From a virus, in the UHGV virus genome UHGV-0211472: a stretch of DNA of 64,000 bases; one strand, given 5' to 3'. The notes below the pieces were generated by a model. That model was not told where the DNA came from, made no database searches, and saw nothing but the letters and a program-made list of their open reading frames with translations. The first letter of the stretch is position 1, and every line of letters starts with the position of its first letter. Below are positions 1 to 58,196 of the stretch, in pieces. The position numbers and the translations under genes were made by a program.

Positions 1-492
1 ATGGATAACGTCGCATTGCCACCTGTACATTTAAACTTAAGCCCAGCTGGAATGGAATTCATCATGAAGCATGAGGGTATGAGAACTAAGGCTTATAAGG
101 ATTCCGCAGGTATCTGGACGATATGTGTAGGGGCTACGCGCGATATGAATGGTTATCCGGTTAGGCAAGGATTAACATATTCTATAGAGGATTGTCTAGC
201 TCTGCTAGATAGAGACACACAAGACTCTGTTCGTGCTACTCAGAAAAACATAAAGGTTCCTTTGCTTGTTCATGAGTTCGATGCACTCACCTCTTTCAAC
301 TTCAATGTTGGCAGTGGGGCTTTGAGCACATCTAAGCTGAGGAAGGTTATCAATGGAGAAGTCAAAGGTGATATTTATTCCGAATTTCTTCGTTGGGATA
401 AAATCACGGTTAAAGGAGAGAAACGGAGAAGTCCGGGTCTTCATAACAGAAGGGTTGCAGAAGCTGATCTTTATACAGAAGCTAAATATTAA
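1..492 (+). CDS. Lysozyme (GH24 muramidase, T4 E / lambda R-like)
   Basis: 163 aa ORF; catalytic-type arrangement E-x8-D-x5-T (HEGmrtkaYKDsagiWT) near N-terminus as in phage GH24 lysozymes. Confidence 0.7.
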   Translation: MDNVALPPVHLNLSPAGMEFIMKHEGMRTKAYKDSAGIWTICVGATRDMNGYPVRQGLTYSIEDCLALLDRDTQDSVRATQKNIKVPLLVHEFDALTSFNFNVGSGALSTSKLRKVINGEVKGDIYSEFLRWDKITVKGEKRRSPGLHNRRVAEADLYTEAKY

Positions 493-9188: not shown

Positions 9189-10838
9189 ATGCAACAGACA
9201 ACTTACGCTCAGGTCAGAAGTCGTGACCCGAGAAATACTTTCTATGGTGTTAATCCGGGAGCGGCTTCGGCCTCTCCTTATATGGCTAGACCCGTTCAGA
9301 CAGCAGATATTTCTATGTATCAACGACCTGCTGTACCTGCTGGGTTATCTGCTCTAGTAGGTCAGGCTTCAGTTGATCATCAGAATATGTTAAATCCTGT
9401 TCAGAGTAATGGTCTTCCTTCTGACATTCCGAATGATGTACAACCTCAAGCACAACAGGCTGTAACTCTTCCTGAGTTTGAGAATCAAGAAACCATGCAA
9501 GCTGCTGGGCTTTCTCCTTCTTCTATTCCTCCAGAATCAGAACCTCTTCCGGTAACACCTCCTACTAAACCGTTAGAAGCTGGTCCTATGGAGTTTACTC
9601 CTTCTCAGGTGGAACAGGCACAAGGTGTGGTTAACACTCTTGCTCAAGGACAAGACACTGGTGATGGGATGGCTGCTGCTACTCGCGCTAAAGATCAAGA
9701 GCGTGTTAACAATGATATCTTGCAAGTTGCTAAAGCTAAAGACCCTTCAGAAGCTTGGAACAAGCTACAGAAAGAGCCATTCTATCAGAACTCTAGTTTC
9801 TATACAGGTTTGATGGGTGTAGGTCTTTCCATTATGTCAGGTAAATCCCCTATCGAAGCTTTCCAAATTGGTCAGGGAATGGCTAATCAAGATGAGACTA
9901 AGAAGCAATTGGAAGCTAACCGTGATGCATTGGTTGAGCAAGGTTTCTCTCAAGACTCTATTGCTGCTGCTATTGCAAGCGGTGACCCTTCTCTTCTGAA
10001 GATGAAAACTAAAGACCCACTCCAACAGGAGGCTCTGTATGCTGCTCGTGAAGAACGACAGAATGCTGAATGGGATAGACGTCAACGGATTCAAGAGCAG
10101 ACTATGCGTGAGCGTGCTGATGAGACTCGTCGTGCCGCTGAAGAAAGGGCTAACCTGAACTTTGAACGTCAGAAAGAGTTGATTGGCTTCCGTGATAAGG
10201 TTAAGGCTGAACGTGCTGAACAAGCTGCTCAGAGTTTTAACTTTAACCCGAAAGAAGTTCGTCTTGCTCAGAACACAGCTGAAGGTACAGTTGCTAAGCA
10301 GTGGGCGGAGAAAGGTGGTCTATTTAATCAATCCAACAAAGACTTGGATTTGGCTGACAAAGCAGTTAAAGATAAAGATTATCAGACAGCTCGTTCTGCT
10401 TACATGCAGGCTATCATGAACTCCGCAAGGGCTGAAATCGGTGCTACTCGTTCACTTACTGAAGAGGACTTGGGACACTTCGCAGAAGACCCGTCGGTCT
10501 TTGTTCGTGTTGGCAACAAGTTTGCACTGAAGTCTGGATGGCGTCCTACTGATGCTGCTCTTTCTTATGCTCGTAAGCAAGCTAACGTTGGTCACACCTC
10601 TGCAATGAAAGGTGTTGCTGATGCTAAGAAAGCGACAATTGAAGCTTACATCGGTTCTGGTATGGATAAGAAGAGAGCTACTGCATTGGTTAACCGTGCA
10701 ATTCCTTCTGGTGGTTTCTATGACCCTCTAGGTGTTTTCTCTGAGCAAGCGGAAGAATCTGTTGGGGGTGCAGCAACCAACCCTAAGCTTAATGGTGCTT
10801 TATCAGCTGTCGAAGACACTAGCTGGTTCACTCAATAA
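9189..10838 (+). CDS. Internal virion protein
   Basis: 549 aa; Pro/Gln-rich N-terminus, charged coiled-coil centre; position between internal proteins. Confidence 0.35.
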   Translation: MQQTTYAQVRSRDPRNTFYGVNPGAASASPYMARPVQTADISMYQRPAVPAGLSALVGQASVDHQNMLNPVQSNGLPSDIPNDVQPQAQQAVTLPEFENQETMQAAGLSPSSIPPESEPLPVTPPTKPLEAGPMEFTPSQVEQAQGVVNTLAQGQDTGDGMAAATRAKDQERVNNDILQVAKAKDPSEAWNKLQKEPFYQNSSFYTGLMGVGLSIMSGKSPIEAFQIGQGMANQDETKKQLEANRDALVEQGFSQDSIAAAIASGDPSLLKMKTKDPLQQEALYAAREERQNAEWDRRQRIQEQTMRERADETRRAAEERANLNFERQKELIGFRDKVKAERAEQAAQSFNFNPKEVRLAQNTAEGTVAKQWAEKGGLFNQSNKDLDLADKAVKDKDYQTARSAYMQAIMNSARAEIGATRSLTEEDLGHFAEDPSVFVRVGNKFALKSGWRPTDAALSYARKQANVGHTSAMKGVADAKKATIEAYIGSGMDKKRATALVNRAIPSGGFYDPLGVFSEQAEESVGGAATNPKLNGALSAVEDTSWFTQ

Positions 10839-52854: not shown

Positions 52855-53184
52855 TTAAATGTCCCATTCTTTACCTTTAGTGGAAGTGTTGCCACCGCAA
52901 TGAGTTGCTCGGGAGATAAAGTCTGACTTCTTCCAATCAGCTTGTGTTTCCATATCACGCTCACGATAGGCTTTCTCATCAACAGATCCACCATTAGAGC
53001 AGCTAGCACCTTCATACTTCATATCAATTTCACCAGAAGGAACCTTAACCCCATCTTTCCAACGCATTACACAAGTACCCTCAACTCCCAGAGCACACCA
53101 ACCGTTGGGACGCGGAGAAGAAGAACATCCAACAGTTGAGAGAACAGCTACAGATAAAAGAGCAGATGCAATCAGAGTTTTCAT
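52855..53184 (-). CDS. Lipoprotein
   Basis: MKTLIASALLSVAVLSTVGCSS: signal peptide with lipobox L-S-T-V-G-C; start moved to this ATG. Confidence 0.45.
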   Translation of the reverse strand: MKTLIASALLSVAVLSTVGCSSSPRPNGWCALGVEGTCVMRWKDGVKVPSGEIDMKYEGASCSNGGSVDEKAYRERDMETQADWKKSDFISRATHCGGNTSTKGKEWDI

Positions 53185-53253
53185 TGTCTTGATTCCTTTA
53201 GTGTTGTCTTGATGAGGTAATAATACTGCCAATCAATAACCGTGTCAACAACT

Positions 53254-53730
53254 TTATTTTGCTTTAACACAATCACCCATCTGGAAGCGGAACGTCCAGA
53301 TACTATTATCAGCAGCATAGACGGAAGTGGCTAACATGGTTTCTTGCATTGTGCCATACGTTACCAGATTAGTCACAACTTTAGAGCCTTTGATAGTCTG
53401 CACATCGCCAAAGGTAATCAACTCAGGGTCATTGTCTTTGCGAGAAAGGAGAATATCCTCATTGTTCTGATTGTCAAGTGTATGAGTAGACAGCACCATA
53501 CCACGATTGGTTACGTTAGATAACTTAACCTTCATCAACGTAGTGACATTATCTGAATCCAACCCTTTACAAACCATCCAACCTTTAGGAGCGTTGCTAA
53601 CGAATGTATCAGCAGCATCATTCACAACTACAGCAGCTTGAGCAACTGGAGCACTAGCAATCTTGTCAGCGATAGCCATGCTACCGAAGGTTAATATCAG
53701 AGCACCGATTACAAAGTTTGACTTAGTCAT
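53254..53730 (-). CDS. Secreted protein
   Basis: N-terminal signal peptide MTKSNFVIGALILTFGSMAIA; first gene downstream of a strong promoter. Confidence 0.45.
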   Translation of the reverse strand: MTKSNFVIGALILTFGSMAIADKIASAPVAQAAVVVNDAADTFVSNAPKGWMVCKGLDSDNVTTLMKVKLSNVTNRGMVLSTHTLDNQNNEDILLSRKDNDPELITFGDVQTIKGSKVVTNLVTYGTMQETMLATSVYAADNSIWTFRFQMGDCVKAK

Positions 53731-53771
53731 GATTGATTCCTTTAGTTGGTATGCTTCGTTTCAATGAGATA

Positions 53772-53800
53772 ACTATACTTCTTACTACACAACAAGTCAA
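53772..53800 (-). promoter_or_regulatory. Sigma70-type early promoter (minus strand)
   Basis: Minus strand TTGACT - 17 nt - TATAGT, ~40 nt upstream of AAGGAA RBS and ATG at 53730. Confidence 0.45.
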
Positions 53801-54090
53801 CAACTAATTTTAATTCTTTTATGATTCACGATGTAGCCTGAGCAACCGCAGTTCTCAGAGAGCCATTACTCACTTGGCTTCTCCAGTGACCCGATAGTGT
53901 TCCAGCCTTAGCCAGTCAATCGCGGAGTCCTTACATCTAATCACTTTCCACTACTTAGGACGATTATCCTTCATGGAACCTACTACTATCTAGCTACTTG
54001 GTATCGCTACTTCGCTTCGATGAATACAATTTACTACTTCTTACTAAGGAAAGCAAGCGCTACGGGTAAAATATTTCTACTATCTATATA

Positions 54091-54539
54091 GGACGGGGAG
54101 ATAACAACCGCAGGACAGACCACGGGGAAGGGTAGCCAGATAGTGCGGTAATAATATACCACTTAAATAATTGTATAACTCAAACATCAAAGACCGTTCG
54201 TACTACGTACTCACCATTCGCTACGCTCATGTACGCTGAAAAAGAAAGTAATAAAAGAATATAATAAACATCAAACATAATCTTTCCACTTAATTAATAC
54301 ATACATCATTATTGCACTCATAATAACAACTATTGAAACTATTATCAACGTAACTATGGGGGCTTGTGACTGTTACTCATGGGCATTATATCGCCTTAAT
54401 CTATTGGTACAGTGGAAGACCATTATCAGTGCTAGCCTTTCATCCATTCAGTAAAGGGGAACTAAATAAACGGGTAGGTAATGAATAGGATGGTATACAC
54501 GGGGAAAGAATAACGGGGAGTAGGCACGGGGAAGGTTGG
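54091..54539. repeat. Dispersed ACGGGGA(A/G) repeats in divergent regulatory region
   Basis: GGACGGGGAGATAAC (~54091), CACGGGGAAGGGTAG (~54121), ACACGGGGAAAGAATAACGGGGAGTAGGCACGGGGAAGG (~54497-54535). Confidence 0.4.
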
Positions 54540-54962
54540 AACGTTGAAAGGGAAGGTAAAGGCATTCCCATATGAGCTTTTTTAAATGAGGACTCCCCTT
54601 TTTTAGGAAACGCGCGGAAGCTGCCTAGCCCCACTCGGTCAAATTGAAATTTTAAACTGTTATATATAAGCTTGATAACTTTATTACGGGGTTGGATACT
54701 ACACATGAAGTAGTTCACTACGTTCAAGTAGCCTTAACGTGACATAGCCTTTATGGGAGTGCCTTAATGTGAGGTCCCCTTTATGTCTTAACTTTATCAG
54801 AGGGATTTATGACTGAAGATGAATATGGTAGCTTCTCTGAAGAAGACTACGAAAATGAATACAGGTATGCTCACGGGTATTAATGTGAGGAGGCCTTTAC
54901 GGGTAGGTAGTCATCAGAGAAGATGATGTGCCCTTTATACTTTCTACTCAGAGGAAAATAAT

Positions 54963-55073
54963 ATGGGATGGTTCCTGTTGGGTTTAATTCTTTTTGCCAC
55001 TGTTCCTATTGTTGCTGTGTTTGGTTGCATAGCCGCTGACTTATTGGGAATAAAGAAAGGAGATGAATTATGA
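54963..55073 (+). CDS. Small hydrophobic membrane peptide
   Basis: 36 aa MGWFLLGLILFATVPIVAVFGCIAADLLGIKKGDEL; GAGGAAA upstream; stop overlaps next start (ATGA). Confidence 0.3.
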   Translation: MGWFLLGLILFATVPIVAVFGCIAADLLGIKKGDEL

Positions 55074-55426
55074 GATTGGATTTAAGAGGTTGTACTAGGT
55101 CAGTTATATTGTTCAGAGGTTATGCTATCAAGATTCCTACTTTTAAATCTTGGAAGCTTTTCTTAAAAGGGATTCTTGCTAACCTACAAGAGAGACATTT
55201 CTCTGAGATGAAAGACCCCAACCTTTGTCCTGTAGTCTTCTCTGATAAGTTTGGTTTCTTAGTAATAATGAAGAGGTGTAAGGTGGTTAAGCACAAAGGA
55301 TTGTGGATGGCAGAGCTTCACACCTTGAAAGGCTCCCTTCCTAAAGAATTTTACCTGTCAGACCTTAAGCCAGAAAATTATGGATACCTAGGCGGACGGT
55401 TGGTTAAATTAGATTATGGAGATTGA
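55070..55426 (+). CDS. Hypothetical protein
   Basis: 118 aa ORF, first substantial gene of the rightward block. Confidence 0.4.
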   Translation: MRLDLRGCTRSVILFRGYAIKIPTFKSWKLFLKGILANLQERHFSEMKDPNLCPVVFSDKFGFLVIMKRCKVVKHKGLWMAELHTLKGSLPKEFYLSDLKPENYGYLGGRLVKLDYGD

Positions 55427-55650
55427 TCATGAATTTAATACTAGACTTTTTATCAGAGGTGATTCCACGGTTCAGAACAGAGACTTGCGCCTTTGTTAAG
55501 ATATCCCCTGAAGAATTAGAATGCATCGGTCGTCTGGTTGACTTGGATGACGATGAAGAATTTGATGCAACGATGGAAGTTAGTAGCCTAGGATGGTTAT
55601 TCTTCCGAGCGTTCACCACTATCAAACCACACACTTATAAGGAATATTAA
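55423..55650 (+). CDS. Hypothetical protein
   Basis: 75 aa ORF overlapping by 4 nt. Confidence 0.35.
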   Translation: MIMNLILDFLSEVIPRFRTETCAFVKISPEELECIGRLVDLDDDEEFDATMEVSSLGWLFFRAFTTIKPHTYKEY

Positions 55651-55653
55651 TTT

Positions 55654-56055
55654 ATGCTAGACTTAATCCACACTACTCGCCCTGATTCTAAAACTAAAAC
55701 ACAACCATCTACTCTGGAAGTAGTTGAATACGAATCTACTAAATATGATCACCTCCCTGACTATGCTCGTGCAATGATTGAGATGATTGAAGAAGCTGAA
55801 TATGAAATGCTCCATGATTACATTACCTCCAAAGATGAATGGCATCGTGATGTTCGCATCGAAGAAGATGGTACAGAAACAATTACGTGGATTCACAAGA
55901 GTGAGTTAGTAGACGACGCACTGCGAGACTACGAAAAATTTTTGGTCGACGGCTCTATTCTTTTAGAGGAAGAGAAGGGTGCAGAACTTCCGTGGGAAGG
56001 CGAGACGATTGCTCTTGGTAAGATGTTTAACCTGTCCGTTGGTGATTGTAAGTAA
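55654..56055 (+). CDS. Hypothetical acidic protein
   Basis: 133 aa ORF. Confidence 0.4.
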   Translation: MLDLIHTTRPDSKTKTQPSTLEVVEYESTKYDHLPDYARAMIEMIEEAEYEMLHDYITSKDEWHRDVRIEEDGTETITWIHKSELVDDALRDYEKFLVDGSILLEEEKGAELPWEGETIALGKMFNLSVGDCK

Positions 56056-56111: not shown

Positions 56112-56585
56112 ATGTTTGGAGAAAACGGAGAACTCACACCTGCACAGGTAGCTGAGATTACAGGAAGATTACCCGGAGTAACGGAAGAACTTGAAGTCCG
56201 TGGTATGAACCCAAGCAATGGGAAGTTTCAAAAGGGAAATAAATTCGGACGACCCAAAGGTAGTAGAGGTAAACTGACACAATTAATGTTGGACCGTGTT
56301 GCTGCAAGTCATTTGTCTCCTGATGAAGTGTTAATTCAAATTTACGAAGATCCTAATATTCCACCTGATCTTAGATTCAAGGCTGCATCAAAAGTTGCAG
56401 ATCTGGTATATCCTAAGGCGGCCTCTGTTGAAGTTAAGATTGAGGAAGAGAATGTAATCAACGAAGAATCATTGAATGCACAAATCAAGGACTTCTTGAC
56501 TGGAGCACTTGGTATCGATGTTATGCCTCCAGAAGAAGATAACTCTGAGGACGCTGAAAAGGGGGAGGAAGCGGACGAGAGTTAA
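56112..56585 (+). CDS. Putative terminase small subunit
   Basis: 157 aa immediately upstream of terminase large subunit; basic GRPKGSRGK segment and acidic C-terminus; positional inference. Confidence 0.3.
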   Translation: MFGENGELTPAQVAEITGRLPGVTEELEVRGMNPSNGKFQKGNKFGRPKGSRGKLTQLMLDRVAASHLSPDEVLIQIYEDPNIPPDLRFKAASKVADLVYPKAASVEVKIEEENVINEESLNAQIKDFLTGALGIDVMPPEEDNSEDAEKGEEADES

Positions 56586-56654: not shown

Positions 56655-58196
56655 ATGTCATTAGATAAACAAATTTATGAAGCTCTAACTGGTAACAACC
56701 TTAGTGTAGATGAAAAGAAAGCACTATTGAATATGTTGAAAGAGCGTGACCAATGGAGGAAGTATAATAGGATTTTGTCTTTCAAGGCGTATGACTTCCA
56801 AAAGAAATTTTATGCAGCAGGATTGAAGCATCGCTTTAGATTCTTGTGTGCAGCGAACCGTGTTGGTAAATCTTATAGTGAGGCATACGAGTTTGCTTGT
56901 CATGTCACAGGTCGCTACCCAACTTGGTGGACAGGATATAAATTTAAAAGACCTATCTTAGCATGGGCAGTTGGTATTACAGGGGATTCCACAAGGAAAG
57001 TATTGCAAAAGGAATTGTTTGGTACACCTATCGGAAAGGATACAAATTTATTAGGGACAGGTGTCATTCCTCGTGATGCTATCGTCATTGATACGATAGA
57101 ACGAGATGGTAACAAACTTCAAATCGTACAAATCAAACATCAAAATGAGAGAGGAGAGTTTGACGGTTTAAGTACATTAGAATTCCGTTCAACCCAACAG
57201 GGTGAACATACATTGATGGGTGCAACAGTTGACTACATTTGGTTAGACGAAGAAGATCCATACGAGTCTATGGCTATATTCGCACAGTGTGTCACACGTA
57301 CACTCACAACTAAAGGTCTAGTTACAATTACAGCTACACCAGAGAACGGTTTAACTGAACTGGTAGATAAATTTATGAAAGGTGAAGGAGATGAGAACAC
57401 GGGTTCTCTATATTTCCAGAATGCTTCTTGGTGGGATGCTCATGCAGACCTAGGTGGACATATCACTGACCAAGATATAAAAGATATGACTGAAGGTATT
57501 CCAGCGTGGCAATTAGAGATGCGTTCAAAAGGTATGCCATTGTTAGGAAGTGGTTTGATTTATGATGTATCGGATGACACAATTAAATGTGAACCATTCG
57601 AAATTCCTGATACGTGGAAACGTGTCTGTGCAATTGATATTGGTATTGATCACCCAACTGCTGCTGTTTGGACAGCTTACGACGCAAACACGGATACTAT
57701 CTATGTTTACGACTCATATAAAGAAGGTGGCTTTACTCCAGTGTATCATGCTCCAGCTATTAATGGTCGTGGTCAGTGGATTCCTGTCATCCTACCGCAT
57801 GACGCGGACAATATTGAGAAAGGTAGTGGTTCATCTGTTGCTCAATTCTATAAGAATGCAGGAGTTAATGTACAGAGTGATACCTTCTACAACAAAATTG
57901 GAATGGATGGTAAAAAGAACTTCTTTGTAGAACCGGGAATCACAGATATCCGAGAAAGAATGATGAGTGGACGCTTTAAAATCTTTAACACAGCCGCTAA
58001 CGCTAAGCTATTCGAAGAGAAAGCTAGATATCACCGTAAGGTTGGTAAGATTATTAAAGAACATGATGACTTAATGGATGCAATGCGCTATTCAGCGTGC
58101 TCTGTTACACATCGTGGTCGCTCTAAGCATGATGTTAGCTACGGAAGCGCTTCTTTGTATGAGGCAAACGTAAGCAGATGGAATCAGAGTTACTAA
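56655..58196 (+). CDS. Terminase large subunit
   Basis: 513 aa; N-terminal ATPase with deviant Walker A LCAANRVGKS and Walker B-like DYIWLDEED; acidic C-terminal nuclease-like motifs; directly upstream of portal. Confidence 0.8.
   Translation: MSLDKQIYEALTGNNLSVDEKKALLNMLKERDQWRKYNRILSFKAYDFQKKFYAAGLKHRFRFLCAANRVGKSYSEAYEFACHVTGRYPTWWTGYKFKRPILAWAVGITGDSTRKVLQKELFGTPIGKDTNLLGTGVIPRDAIVIDTIERDGNKLQIVQIKHQNERGEFDGLSTLEFRSTQQGEHTLMGATVDYIWLDEEDPYESMAIFAQCVTRTLTTKGLVTITATPENGLTELVDKFMKGEGDENTGSLYFQNASWWDAHADLGGHITDQDIKDMTEGIPAWQLEMRSKGMPLLGSGLIYDVSDDTIKCEPFEIPDTWKRVCAIDIGIDHPTAAVWTAYDANTDTIYVYDSYKEGGFTPVYHAPAINGRGQWIPVILPHDADNIEKGSGSSVAQFYKNAGVNVQSDTFYNKIGMDGKKNFFVEPGITDIRERMMSGRFKIFNTAANAKLFEEKARYHRKVGKIIKEHDDLMDAMRYSACSVTHRGRSKHDVSYGSASLYEANVSRWNQSY

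What the first reader, a model, noticed from the sequence alone, without database searches (positions are those of the whole stretch)
53731..54962. Divergent 1.2 kb control region with a near-consensus sigma70 promoter and ACGGGGAAG / TACTAC / TTAATGTGAGG repeats
This region separates the leftward early block (first gene starts at 53730) from the rightward block starting at 54963. A strong minus-strand promoter TTGACT-17-TATAGT lies at 53772..53800. The region holds at least five ACGGGGA(A/G) copies (54091..54539), many (C/T)TACTAC copies (53781..54240) and two copies of TTAATGTGAGG-N5-CCTTTA(T/C)G (~54768 and ~54879). These may be promoters for the phage sigma-like factor, regulator binding sites, or the packaging-recognition region next to the terminase module.
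Basis: seen in the sequence. Interest (0 to 1): 0.45.

Follow-up and report, generated by a model that had tools for sequence, protein, structure and literature searches.

The report
Phage genome ends, joined by assembly
The 1.2 kb "control region" is the place where the two physical ends of a phiEco32-like coliphage genome were joined by the assembly: it holds one collapsed copy of the known 193-bp terminal repeat plus the gene-free leaders of both ends. This is ordinary for this phage group, apart from uncharacterised arrays of same-direction short repeats.

Summary
The TTGACT-17-TATAGT promoter, five ACGGGGA copies, the clustered YTACTW copies and the TTAAYGTGA-N5-CCTTTAYG units are all present and far above chance.

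The region is not a classical divergent control region. The window is a permuted assembly of a Kuravirus (phiEco32-like) phage. Window 54434-54626 is the homologue, base for base at both boundaries, of the 193-bp direct terminal repeat (DTR) mapped in phiEco32, SU10, Paul and YF01.
- 53731-54433 is the gene-free right-end leader, with the early sigma70 promoter pointing inward.
- 54627-54962 is the left-end leader.
- Both DTR boundaries lie in CT|AGCC.

Four AYGGGKA copies lie inside the DTR. Eleven AYGGGK copies lie within 921 nt, all on one strand. They are more conserved than their neighbours, and the array is kept (7-12 copies on + against 0-1 on -) across three phage clades even where the motif drifts to ATGGGTA. 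The closest analogue is T7's CCTAAAG heptamer arrays in and beside its terminal repeat.

The best reading is a concatemer-junction (packaging and end-formation) region flanked by inward early promoters. That the repeats bind terminase is an inference. The TTAATGTGAGG units do not fit the gp36 promoter motif. The DTR itself is already known in relatives, so interest is low to moderate.

The parts
53731..54433 (.). Right-end unique, gene-free leader of the linear genome, lying between the first leftward early gene and the terminal repeat.
   Evidence: No ORF longer than 42 aa. The stretch 54093-54433 aligns at 75-84% to the non-coding stretch just before the right DTR of phiEco32, YF01 and other Kuraviruses.
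53772..53800 (-). Sigma70-type early promoter, TTGACT-17-TATAGT, pointing inward (leftward) to the gene that starts at 53730.
   Evidence: The consensus scan gives 10 of 12 matches. SU10 has a positional counterpart, TTGACA-17-TATAGT, upstream of CDS125. No transcription start has been mapped here.
53951..54082 (+). Cluster of 9 YTACTW copies, all on the + strand (a tenth lies at 53782).
   Evidence: The same strand-biased enrichment (2-10 on + against 0-1 on -) is seen in the equivalent part of 14 E. coli-phage relatives, even where the sequence is not alignable; it is absent in two of the three distant contigs. Function unknown.
54062..54128 (+). Three upstream AYGGGKA (R1) copies at 54062, 54093 and 54122, spaced 31 and 29 nt apart.
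   Evidence: They are conserved in all 10 aligned Kuraviruses. R1 columns have pairwise identity 0.97 against 0.67 for neighbouring columns.
54150..54345 (.). AT-rich stretch (GC 0.28 against 0.42 for the window). It is bounded by conserved boxes CCACTTAAATAAT (54159-54171) and CCACTTAATTAAT followed by TACATACATCATTATTGCACTCATAAT (54286-54324). A possible DNA-unwinding or origin element.
   Evidence: The boxes are nearly invariant in all clades, while the A-rich spacer between them is indel-rich.
54434..54626 (+). Single (collapsed) copy of the 193-bp direct terminal repeat. 54434 is the left physical end and 54626 is the right physical end.
   Evidence: In phiEco32 the first 193 nt equal the last 193 nt. 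Position 1 of the Paul record (DTR 1..193 by PhageTerm) aligns to 54434. The annotated DTR of YF01 and the right end of phiEco32 align to 54626. The window holds only one copy. The T-run repeat ends 21 nt from the repeat end, as described for SU10.
54432..54437 (+). Left cutting position, CT|AGCC.
   Evidence: CT|AGCC precedes the DTR in most relatives (AT|AGCC in YF01, CT|GGCC in MN03), as seen.
54625..54630 (+). Right cutting position, CT|AGCC, the same hexamer as at the left boundary.
   Evidence: Relatives have CT|AGSY here.
54470..54532 (+). Four R1 copies inside the DTR: ACGGGTA at 54470 and ACGGGGA at 54499, 54513 and 54526 (spacings 29, 14 and 13 nt).
   Evidence: Pairwise identity is 0.99 against 0.82 for other DTR columns; 9 of 5000 random heptamer sets do as well. 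In a distant clade the copies read ATGGGTA(GG) instead.
54576..54605 (+). Most conserved block of the DTR: GCTTTTTTA-N11-CCCTTTTTTA, containing AAATGAGGACTCCCC (54584-54598). This is the candidate core recognition site for end formation.
   Evidence: It is near-invariant in all clades. An 18-nt exact match is kept in a relative whose TerS-like protein is only 68% identical. It is the same repeat whose T-run length varies among SU10 reads.
54633..54670 (+). Near-invariant left-end block, ACTCGGTCAAAT...ATTTTAAAC..TTATATATAAG. A putative early promoter that reads rightward (inward).
   Evidence: Conserved in every clade. The SU10 authors list the same block as a 'potential sigma-70 promoter' upstream of CDS1. 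The hexamer match is poor, so it may instead belong to the cleavage signal.
54731..54785 (+). Two tandem R2 units, GCCTTAAYGTGA-N5-CCTTTATG.
   Evidence: They are kept in nearly all relatives, including distant clades. In phiEco32 they lie inside the annotated ORF phi32_1, which the window lacks, so they behave as cis elements.
54877..54940 (+). Third R2 unit (54877-54901) fused to an R1 copy (CCTTTACGGGTAGG), plus a partial unit GCCCTTTATAC (54930-54940).
54809..54883 (+). 24-codon acidic ORF MTEDEYGSFSEEDYENEYRYAHGY with a GAGGGA ribosome-binding site. Its stop codon overlaps the third R2 unit.
   Evidence: It is homologous to the C-terminal half of phiEco32 phi32_2, and the differences are mostly synonymous.

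Best explanation
The region is the concatemer junction of a phiEco32-like (Kuravirus) phage with a linear genome and a 193-bp direct terminal repeat (DTR). The assembly is permuted and has collapsed the two repeat copies into one. In the virion, 53731-54626 is the last ~900 bp of the right end and 54434 onward is the left end.

Shown (by homology to mapped ends):
- The DTR is 54434-54626.
- Both boundaries lie in the same hexamer, CT|AGCC.

Inferred:
- During packaging, terminase recognises conserved sequences in and next to the single repeat copy of the concatemer. The candidates are the near-invariant AAATGAGGACTCCCC/T-run block 21-50 nt before the right cut and the first 12 nt, AGCCTTTCATCC.
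- Terminase then cuts or nicks at the two CT|AGCC sites, and the repeat is duplicated by strand-displacement synthesis as in T7.
- The same-direction AYGGGKA copies (4 in the repeat, 3 upstream, 3-4 downstream), probably together with the GCCTTWAYR units, are docking sites that load the small terminase subunit (ORF 56112-56585) or another end-binding protein in a defined orientation.
- Separately, each end carries an inward-pointing early promoter: a strong sigma70 promoter at 53800-53772 and a conserved block at 54633-54670. Host RNA polymerase can therefore start early transcription from whichever end enters the cell.
For: Identity of the phage:
- 97-100 Kuravirus-like coliphage records match the region.
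- Window GC is 0.422 against 42.3% reported for phiEco32.

DTR:
- The phiEco32 ends are identical over 193 nt.
- The window is 83-87% identical to DTRs of relatives across the full repeat, and both boundaries coincide with phiEco32, Paul (PhageTerm), YF01 (nanopore full-length reads, PMC9965538) and LAMP.
- A clade with a 250-nt repeat (NC-B) starts at the same AGCCTTTCATCC.
- The internal T-run repeat ends 21 nt from the repeat end, exactly as in SU10.
- The window has only one copy. Collapse of DTRs in assemblies is a known artefact (PMC10438801).

Synteny:
- Large terminase lies 2 kb to the right (phrog_2).
- A profile of the ORF just upstream of it has two PaP3-group small terminases as its best PDB hits: 7JOQ at E = 0.0015 and 6W7T at E = 0.14. 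This agrees with PMC9965538.

Repeats:
- The enrichment is extreme and confined to one strand.
- R1 columns are more conserved than their neighbours.
- The array is kept in all 14 E. coli-phage relatives with a detectable core (7-12 on + against 0-1 on -), although the motif drifts to ATGGGTA in one clade.
- T7 shows the same design: CYTAAAG heptamers number 3 in its 160-bp repeat, 9 just after it and 2-3 before the right copy, all on one strand and many at 13-nt spacing.
Against: - No reads or virion-end data exist for this phage, so the ends rest on homology alone.
- Terminase binding to the repeats is untested.
- The TerS-like protein is about 93% identical between the ACGGGGA clade and the ATGGGTA clade. 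A simple co-variation of protein and site is therefore not evident; the few differences cluster at residues 28-40.
- The AlphaFold model of the TerS-like ORF was poor (pLDDT 66) and found no structural match.
- In three more distant relatives the AYGGGK array is weak, with 2 copies near the core.
- The function of T7's analogous repeats is itself not established (own knowledge).
- The left-end 'promoter' block matches the sigma70 hexamers poorly.
Confidence: 0.85

Rival explanations
1. A true divergent transcription-control region. The repeats would be operator or activator sites for a phage or host regulator, or promoters for the phage sigma factor gp36, that set the timing of the leftward early block and the rightward block.
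For: Promoter-like sites are in excess: 13 against 4.8 +/- 2.2 in shuffles. A strong sigma70 promoter lies at 53800-53772. The TTAATGT part of the R2 units resembles tAATGTAtA. The DTR carries TAATGAAT here (54479-54486), and that position reads TAATGTAT in PGN6866, XT18, SGF2 and Paul.
Against: The two blocks are not contiguous in virion DNA. The R2 units vary (AAYGTG, AACATG, AATATG) at the positions that are fixed in gp36 promoters (PMC12276001). The late promoters reported for SU10 lie elsewhere. The AATGTA/AATGAA position in the DTR is dimorphic and is absent in the distant clade. Most repeats lie within or distal to the terminal repeat, not between a promoter and a gene.
Confidence: 0.12
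2. A replication origin at the right end. The AYGGGKA and CCACTTAAWTAAT copies would act as iterons for an initiator or primase-helicase, and the 28%-GC stretch 54150-54345 would be the unwinding element.
For: There are oriented repeats plus an AT-rich, indel-rich spacer bounded by near-invariant boxes. The cumulative GC-skew minimum falls at about 54200-54400.
Against: The GC-skew switch is equally explained by the change of gene orientation. No initiator gene lies nearby. Most AYGGGKA copies are inside or beyond the terminal repeat rather than beside the AT-rich stretch. This reading is compatible with the main explanation rather than exclusive of it.
Confidence: 0.2
3. A structured non-coding RNA gene, or a run of small genes that the ORF list missed.
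For: The region holds about 600 nt of non-coding sequence conserved at about 80%. Some records annotate CDSs across it.
Against: There is no Rfam match at E <= 1 apart from a chance lncRNA hit outside the region, and no tRNA or tmRNA. Folding of the DTR is no better than shuffles, with z = +0.86 as RNA and +0.83 as DNA. The annotated CDSs have no conserved frame, and in virion DNA they would be split between the genome ends.
Confidence: 0.04

Closest known systems
Direct terminal repeat (193 bp) and terminal non-coding regions of phiEco32 and other Kuraviruses (SU10, Paul, YF01)
   Same: The sequence is homologous (83-87% identity) with identical boundaries. It has the same internal T-run repeat 21 nt from the end, the same flanking synteny and the same early promoter position.
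   Different: This phage lacks the phi32_1 ORF. It has a different first leftward gene (158 aa against 290 aa). It carries extra small ORFs (24 aa and 36 aa) at the left end. The repeat appears once and internally because the assembly is permuted.
T7 terminal repetition with its flanking arrays of CCTAAAG heptamers (the SRL/SRR repeats of Dunn and Studier 1983, recalled from memory; the sequence was checked here)
   Same: Both have a short DTR (160 bp against 193 bp). Both have short same-strand repeats inside the repeat and on both flanks, several of them at 13-14-nt spacing. Both have inward early promoters in a gene-free leader, and both use packaging from concatemers that hold one repeat copy (PMC10438801).
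   Different: There is no sequence similarity and the motif differs. T7 uses its own RNA polymerase and couples junction processing to it, whereas this group uses host polymerase with a phage sigma factor. In T7 the long leader is at the left end; here the long (~700 nt) leader is at the right end.
cos or pac recognition by PaP3-type small terminase
   Same: The ORF upstream of large terminase is weakly profile-related to PaP3-group TerS. The PaP3 cos sequence GCCGGCCCCTTTCCGCGTTA (PMC7672466) loosely resembles the conserved CCCCTTTTTTAGGAAACGCGCGG here.
   Different: PaP3 is described as a cos phage with 20-nt cohesive ends, not a DTR phage. The resemblance is a C-run/T-run/CGCG pattern only and was not tested statistically.

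Membership tests
Kuravirus 193-bp direct terminal repeat / concatemer junction | Full-length homology to an experimentally defined DTR | tested here: met
   The 193 nt at 54434-54626 align end to end with the DTRs of phiEco32, Paul and YF01 at 83-87% identity.
Kuravirus 193-bp direct terminal repeat / concatemer junction | The same left and right boundaries as the mapped ends | tested here: met
   Position 1 of the Paul and LAMP records aligns to 54434. The last base of phiEco32 and YF01 aligns to 54626. CT|AGCC is present at both boundaries.
Kuravirus 193-bp direct terminal repeat / concatemer junction | The sequence is physically present at both ends of this phage's virion DNA | not testable with these tools
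   No reads or end-mapping data are available. The window holds only one copy.
Kuravirus 193-bp direct terminal repeat / concatemer junction | Flanking synteny: leftward early genes on one side, small genes then TerS and TerL on the other | tested here: met
   PHROG matches and the annotations of relatives.
T7-type terminal repeat with oriented short-repeat arrays | Short same-strand repeats inside and flanking the DTR | tested here: met
   AYGGGK gives 11 on + and 0 on - here. T7 has 14 CYTAAAG on + and 0 on - at its left end.
T7-type terminal repeat with oriented short-repeat arrays | Homology of sequence or of the packaging and transcription machinery to T7 | not tested
   No DNA similarity was seen, and the proteins were not compared. 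The relation claimed is analogy, not membership.
gp36 (phiEco32 sigma) middle/late promoter | AATGTA (tAATGTAtA) core about 8 nt upstream of the start | tested here: not met
   The units read TTAACGTGA or TTAATGTGA here and AACATG or AATATG in relatives. The consensus comes from PMC12276001 and PMC4281155.
Sigma70 early promoter | -35 and -10 hexamers with a 17-nt spacer upstream of an early gene | tested here: met
   TTGACT-17-TATAGT at 53800-53772 matches 10 of 12 positions. SU10 has a counterpart. The transcription start is not testable here.
Iteron-type replication origin | Repeated sites next to an AT-rich unwinding element, bound by an initiator | tested here: inconclusive
   Repeats and a 28%-GC stretch are present. 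An initiator and origin activity are not testable.
Rfam RNA families | Covariance-model match | tested here: not met
   No relevant hit at E <= 1 in 53000-56000.

The most novel reading that the evidence does not exclude
The three families of same-strand short repeats form a polar, multi-site loading signal. The families are AYGGGKA, GCCTTWAYR and YTACTW, spread over about 1.1 kb around the terminal repeat. The signal would orient terminase (or another end-binding protein) on the concatemer and define which CT|AGCC is cut first. This would be a functional counterpart of T7's still unexplained heptamer arrays, but in a phage that uses host RNA polymerase, and so a tractable system for asking what such arrays do.
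Probability: 0.3. Interest if true: 0.5.

Novelty: new member of a known kind. Interest (0 to 1): 0.3.

Why it matters
Annotation. The finding shows that this contig is permuted and that its true ends are at 54434 and 54626. ORFs called across the repeat in some database records are therefore probably spurious. The apparent 'divergent promoter region' is an assembly artefact of a linear genome.

Biology. The terminal repeat of this phage group has been known since 2008. The strictly oriented, selectively conserved AYGGGKA array, the shared CT|AGCC cut hexamer and the near-invariant AAATGAGGACTCCCC block are concrete, testable candidates for the packaging signal of C3-morphotype coliphages, which are being developed for therapy. 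I found no description of them in the searchable literature, but the two primary phiEco32 papers could not be read.

Tried and rejected
- Rfam scan and tRNA scan: nothing relevant.
- RNA and DNA folding of the repeat: no better than shuffles. The inverted match ACGGGGAGT/ACTCCCC is not kept in the clade with ATGGGTA repeats, so a hairpin requirement was dropped.
- TerS-like ORF against PDB by single sequence: nothing. Pfam: only sub-threshold DUF5681. AlphaFold model pLDDT 66 and Foldseek against PDB: nothing. Only the profile search gave weak small-terminase hits.
- Co-variation of TerS with repeat type: the protein is nearly identical between clades, so the test has no power.
- KOPS-like (GGGNAGGG) reading of the repeats: inconsistent, because phiEco32 has none. 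Chi-like reading: no resemblance to GCTGGTGG.
- IMG/VR scan with the 15-mer core: 31 loci. Most are an unrelated coding sequence or chance matches. Only phiEco32 itself, one 76.6-kb Kuravirus contig and two distant contigs are related.
- Savalia 2008 and Pavlova 2012, the primary phiEco32 papers, are not held in the library. What they say about these repeats or about promoters mapped here could not be checked.
- Literature search for T7 SRL/SRR: nothing. T7 was checked from its sequence instead.
- Searches for the repeat strings in papers found nothing phage-related.

Full report
**What is in the sequence**

The region 53731-54962 lies between a leftward ORF (53254-53730) and a rightward ORF (54963-55073).
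- The minus-strand promoter TTGACT-17-TATAGT at 53800-53772 matches 10 of 12 consensus positions.
- ACGGGGA occurs five times (54093, 54122, 54499, 54513, 54526), always on the + strand. The whole 64-kb window has only seven copies.
- Widened to ACGGGKA, nine of 15 window matches fall in 54062-54905. The expectation is 6.4 for the whole window, and no shuffle reaches 15.
- AYGGGK gives 11 on + and 0 on - in 921 nt, against 0.7 expected per strand.
- YTACTW has nine + strand copies within 132 nt (53951-54082). This is the densest spot in the window, although the motif is not enriched window-wide. Exact YTACTAC occurs only three times.
- TTAAYGTGA-N5-CCTTTAYG occurs three times (54734, 54764, 54880) against 0.08 expected.

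**What the region is**

BLAST against phage records finds about 100 Kuravirus-like (phiEco32-like) coliphages, at most 84% identical. The most conserved part is 54093-54673, and it is non-coding in nearly all records.

These phages have linear genomes with short direct terminal repeats (DTRs). The repeat is 193 bp in phiEco32, where it was mapped by restriction analysis, primer walking and sub-cloning. It is also 193 bp in SU10 (read drop-off), Paul (PhageTerm) and YF01 (full-length nanopore reads) (PMC9965538, PMC4281155).

I read both ends of the phiEco32 record. The first and last 193 nt are identical. Window 54434-54626 aligns to that repeat over its full length.
- Position 1 of the Paul record, whose DTR is annotated 1..193, aligns to 54434.
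- The last base of phiEco32 and of the annotated YF01 DTR aligns to 54626.
- A clade with a 250-nt repeat (NC-B) starts at the same AGCCTTTCATCC.
- The internal repeat GCTTTTTTA-N11-CCCTTTTTTA ends 21 nt before 54626, the distance reported for SU10.

The window is therefore a permuted assembly in which the two repeat copies were merged, a common outcome for DTR phages (PMC10438801). In virion DNA, 53731-54626 is the right end and 54434 onward is the left end. The 'divergent' arrangement exists only in concatemers or on paper.

**Anatomy**

*Right-end leader (53731-54433).* From left to right it holds:
- the early sigma70 promoter pointing inward; SU10 and phiEco32 have a counterpart upstream of their last gene;
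- the YTACTW cluster;
- three AYGGGKA copies;
- a 28%-GC, indel-rich stretch bounded by near-invariant boxes (CCACTTAAWTAAT twice, and TACATACATCATTATTGCACTCATAAT).

*The DTR (54434-54626).*
- It starts and ends beside the same hexamer, CT|AGCC (54432-54437 and 54625-54630). Relatives have CT|AGSY, with two exceptions at the left boundary.
- It carries four AYGGGKA copies, at spacings of 29, 14 and 13 nt.
- It also carries the most conserved block of the whole region, AAATGAGGACTCCCC with its flanking T-runs. That block survives as an 18-nt exact match in a relative whose TerS-like protein is only 68% identical.

*Left-end leader (54627-54962).*
- It begins with a near-invariant block (54633-54670) that the SU10 authors list as a potential sigma70 promoter.
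- An array of GCCTTWAYR units interleaved with AYGGGT copies follows. This array is kept in all clades.
- In phiEco32 two of these units lie inside the annotated ORF phi32_1. The window has lost that ORF but kept the units. They therefore behave as cis elements, not as coding sequence.
- A 24-codon acidic ORF (54809-54883) lies in this leader. It is homologous to the C-terminal half of phi32_2.

**Are the repeats functional?**

In the alignment of ten Kuraviruses, the AYGGGKA columns are more conserved than their neighbours.
- In the right-end leader, pairwise identity is 0.97 against 0.67; 88 of 5000 random heptamer sets do as well.
- In the DTR it is 0.99 against 0.82; 9 of 5000 random sets do as well.

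Across the window and 14 E. coli-phage relatives in which the core was found, from three clades, the 940 nt around the core hold 7-12 AYGGGK on the + strand and 0-1 on the - strand. Background is 0.2-1.7 per kb per strand. In one clade the DTR copies read ATGGGTA(GG) instead of ACGGGGA, but their number and orientation are kept. That pattern is what protein-binding sites show. In three more distant contigs the core block is retained but the array is weak.

**Mechanism**

The ends are shown by homology. The rest is inference.

These phages are thought to replicate and package like T7: the concatemer holds one repeat copy per junction, and the second copy is synthesised during processing (PMC4281155, PMC7881722, PMC10438801). 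I propose the following.
- Terminase recognises the invariant block near the right boundary, and possibly the first 12 nt of the repeat.
- It cuts at the two CT|AGCC sites.
- The oriented AYGGGKA and GCCTTWAYR arrays load the small subunit, or another end-binding protein, directionally.

Supporting context: large terminase lies at 56655-58196. A profile of the ORF just upstream (56112-56585) has small terminases of PaP3-group phages as its two best PDB hits, at E = 0.0015 and 0.14. This agrees with the HHpred assignment in PMC9965538.

Weaknesses:
- The single-sequence PDB search, Pfam and an AlphaFold/Foldseek attempt gave nothing.
- The protein is about 93% identical between the two repeat-variant clades, so no co-variation test is possible.

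**Comparison with known systems**

The repeat is a member of the Kuravirus DTR family by sequence, boundaries and synteny.

The repeat arrays work most like T7's terminal region. I checked this on the T7 sequence.
- CYTAAAG heptamers occur 3 times in the 160-bp repeat.
- They occur 9 times just after it, many at 13-nt spacing.
- They occur 2-3 times before the right copy.
- All are on one strand.

This is analogy, not homology, and the role of T7's arrays is itself unsettled (own knowledge).

The gp36 promoter family is rejected for the TTAATGTGAGG units. The gp36 core AATGTA (PMC12276001) is not matched here, and the units vary at those positions in relatives. The window's good matches to tAATGTAtA lie elsewhere.

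An origin of replication in the AT-rich part of the right-end leader cannot be excluded and would be compatible with the main reading. A structured RNA is unlikely.

**Verdict**

The main feature, the DTR and its terminal leaders, is already known for this phage group, so this is a new member of a known kind. The strictly oriented, selectively conserved repeat arrays and the shared cut hexamer are undescribed in the literature I could search. However, the two primary phiEco32 papers could not be read. Interest is low to moderate.

Noticed in passing
window 54809-54883 (+): A 24-codon, very acidic, Tyr/Glu-rich ORF (MTEDEYGSFSEEDYENEYRYAHGY) with a good ribosome-binding site. It corresponds to the C-terminal half of phiEco32 phi32_2. 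It is present in the window, phiEco32, MN03 and Bas89 with mostly synonymous differences, and is deleted in NJ01, PGN6866, O18-011, SR02 and Paul. It would be the first ORF on the left-end early transcript. A host-takeover or DNA-mimic role is pure speculation.
   Followed up: partly
window 54963-55073 (+): A 36-aa hydrophobic ORF (MGWFLLGLILFATVPIVAVFGCIAADLLGIKKGDEL). Among the fetched relatives it is shared only with phage O18-011 (94% nt identity over 54930-55073). It is an accessory small membrane peptide at the left end.
   Followed up: no
window 54479-54486; relatives in the alignment: The DTR is dimorphic at one spot. The window, phiEco32, MN03, NJ01, SR02 and YF01 have TAATGAAT. PGN6866, XT18, SGF2 and Paul have TAATGTAT. 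The second form equals the gp36 promoter core, so some relatives may have a late promoter inside the terminal repeat that reads across the junction. The site is absent in the distant clade.
   Followed up: partly
window 54594-54605; relatives: The C-run/T-run in the conserved DTR block changes by substitution at constant total length: C4T6 here, C5T5 in most relatives, C6T4 in SGF2, Paul and MLP3. The exception is NC-B, with 11 nt. SU10 reads show T-run length heterogeneity at the same spot (PMC4281155).
   Followed up: no
L009 (XT18) 1515-1934; L004 (Paul) 104-415: Database records annotate protein-coding genes that run across the terminal repeat. The window has no equivalent open frame, and in virion DNA the XT18 gene would be split between the genome ends. 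These annotations are probably spurious.
   Followed up: partly
L021 2090-4713; L022 1595-5065; L023 1848-4920: More distant relatives (TerS-like protein 68-75% identical, 57-100 kb metagenomic contigs) have much larger gene-poor junction regions, 2.6-3.5 kb. They keep the AAATGAGGACTCCCC core and carry other repeats such as GATTGTTAAAGAGC (3 copies).
   Followed up: partly
L023 8137-11192: The SU10-type portal gene of a 100-kb metagenomic contig is split into two ORFs by a GIY-YIG endonuclease ORF (9722-10243). This suggests a mobile intron or a homing-endonuclease insertion.
   Followed up: no
window 55654-56055 (+): The homologue of the phi32_5 gene, annotated 'ABC transporter', matches only positions 88-210 of its 210-position PHROG profile (133 aa). 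In this phage it is either N-terminally shortened or its upstream part has been replaced. Two extra ORFs (54963-55426) lie further upstream, before the phi32_4-like ORF.
   Followed up: no
window 53400-55300: Sigma70-like promoter matches are in excess: 13 against 4.8 +/- 2.2 in shuffles. They include leftward candidates at 54348-54320 (with TG), 54288-54261 and 53992-53963 in the right-end leader. Their distances from the right end loosely recall T7's A1-A3 cluster. The -35 of the best candidate is not conserved in most relatives.
   Followed up: partly
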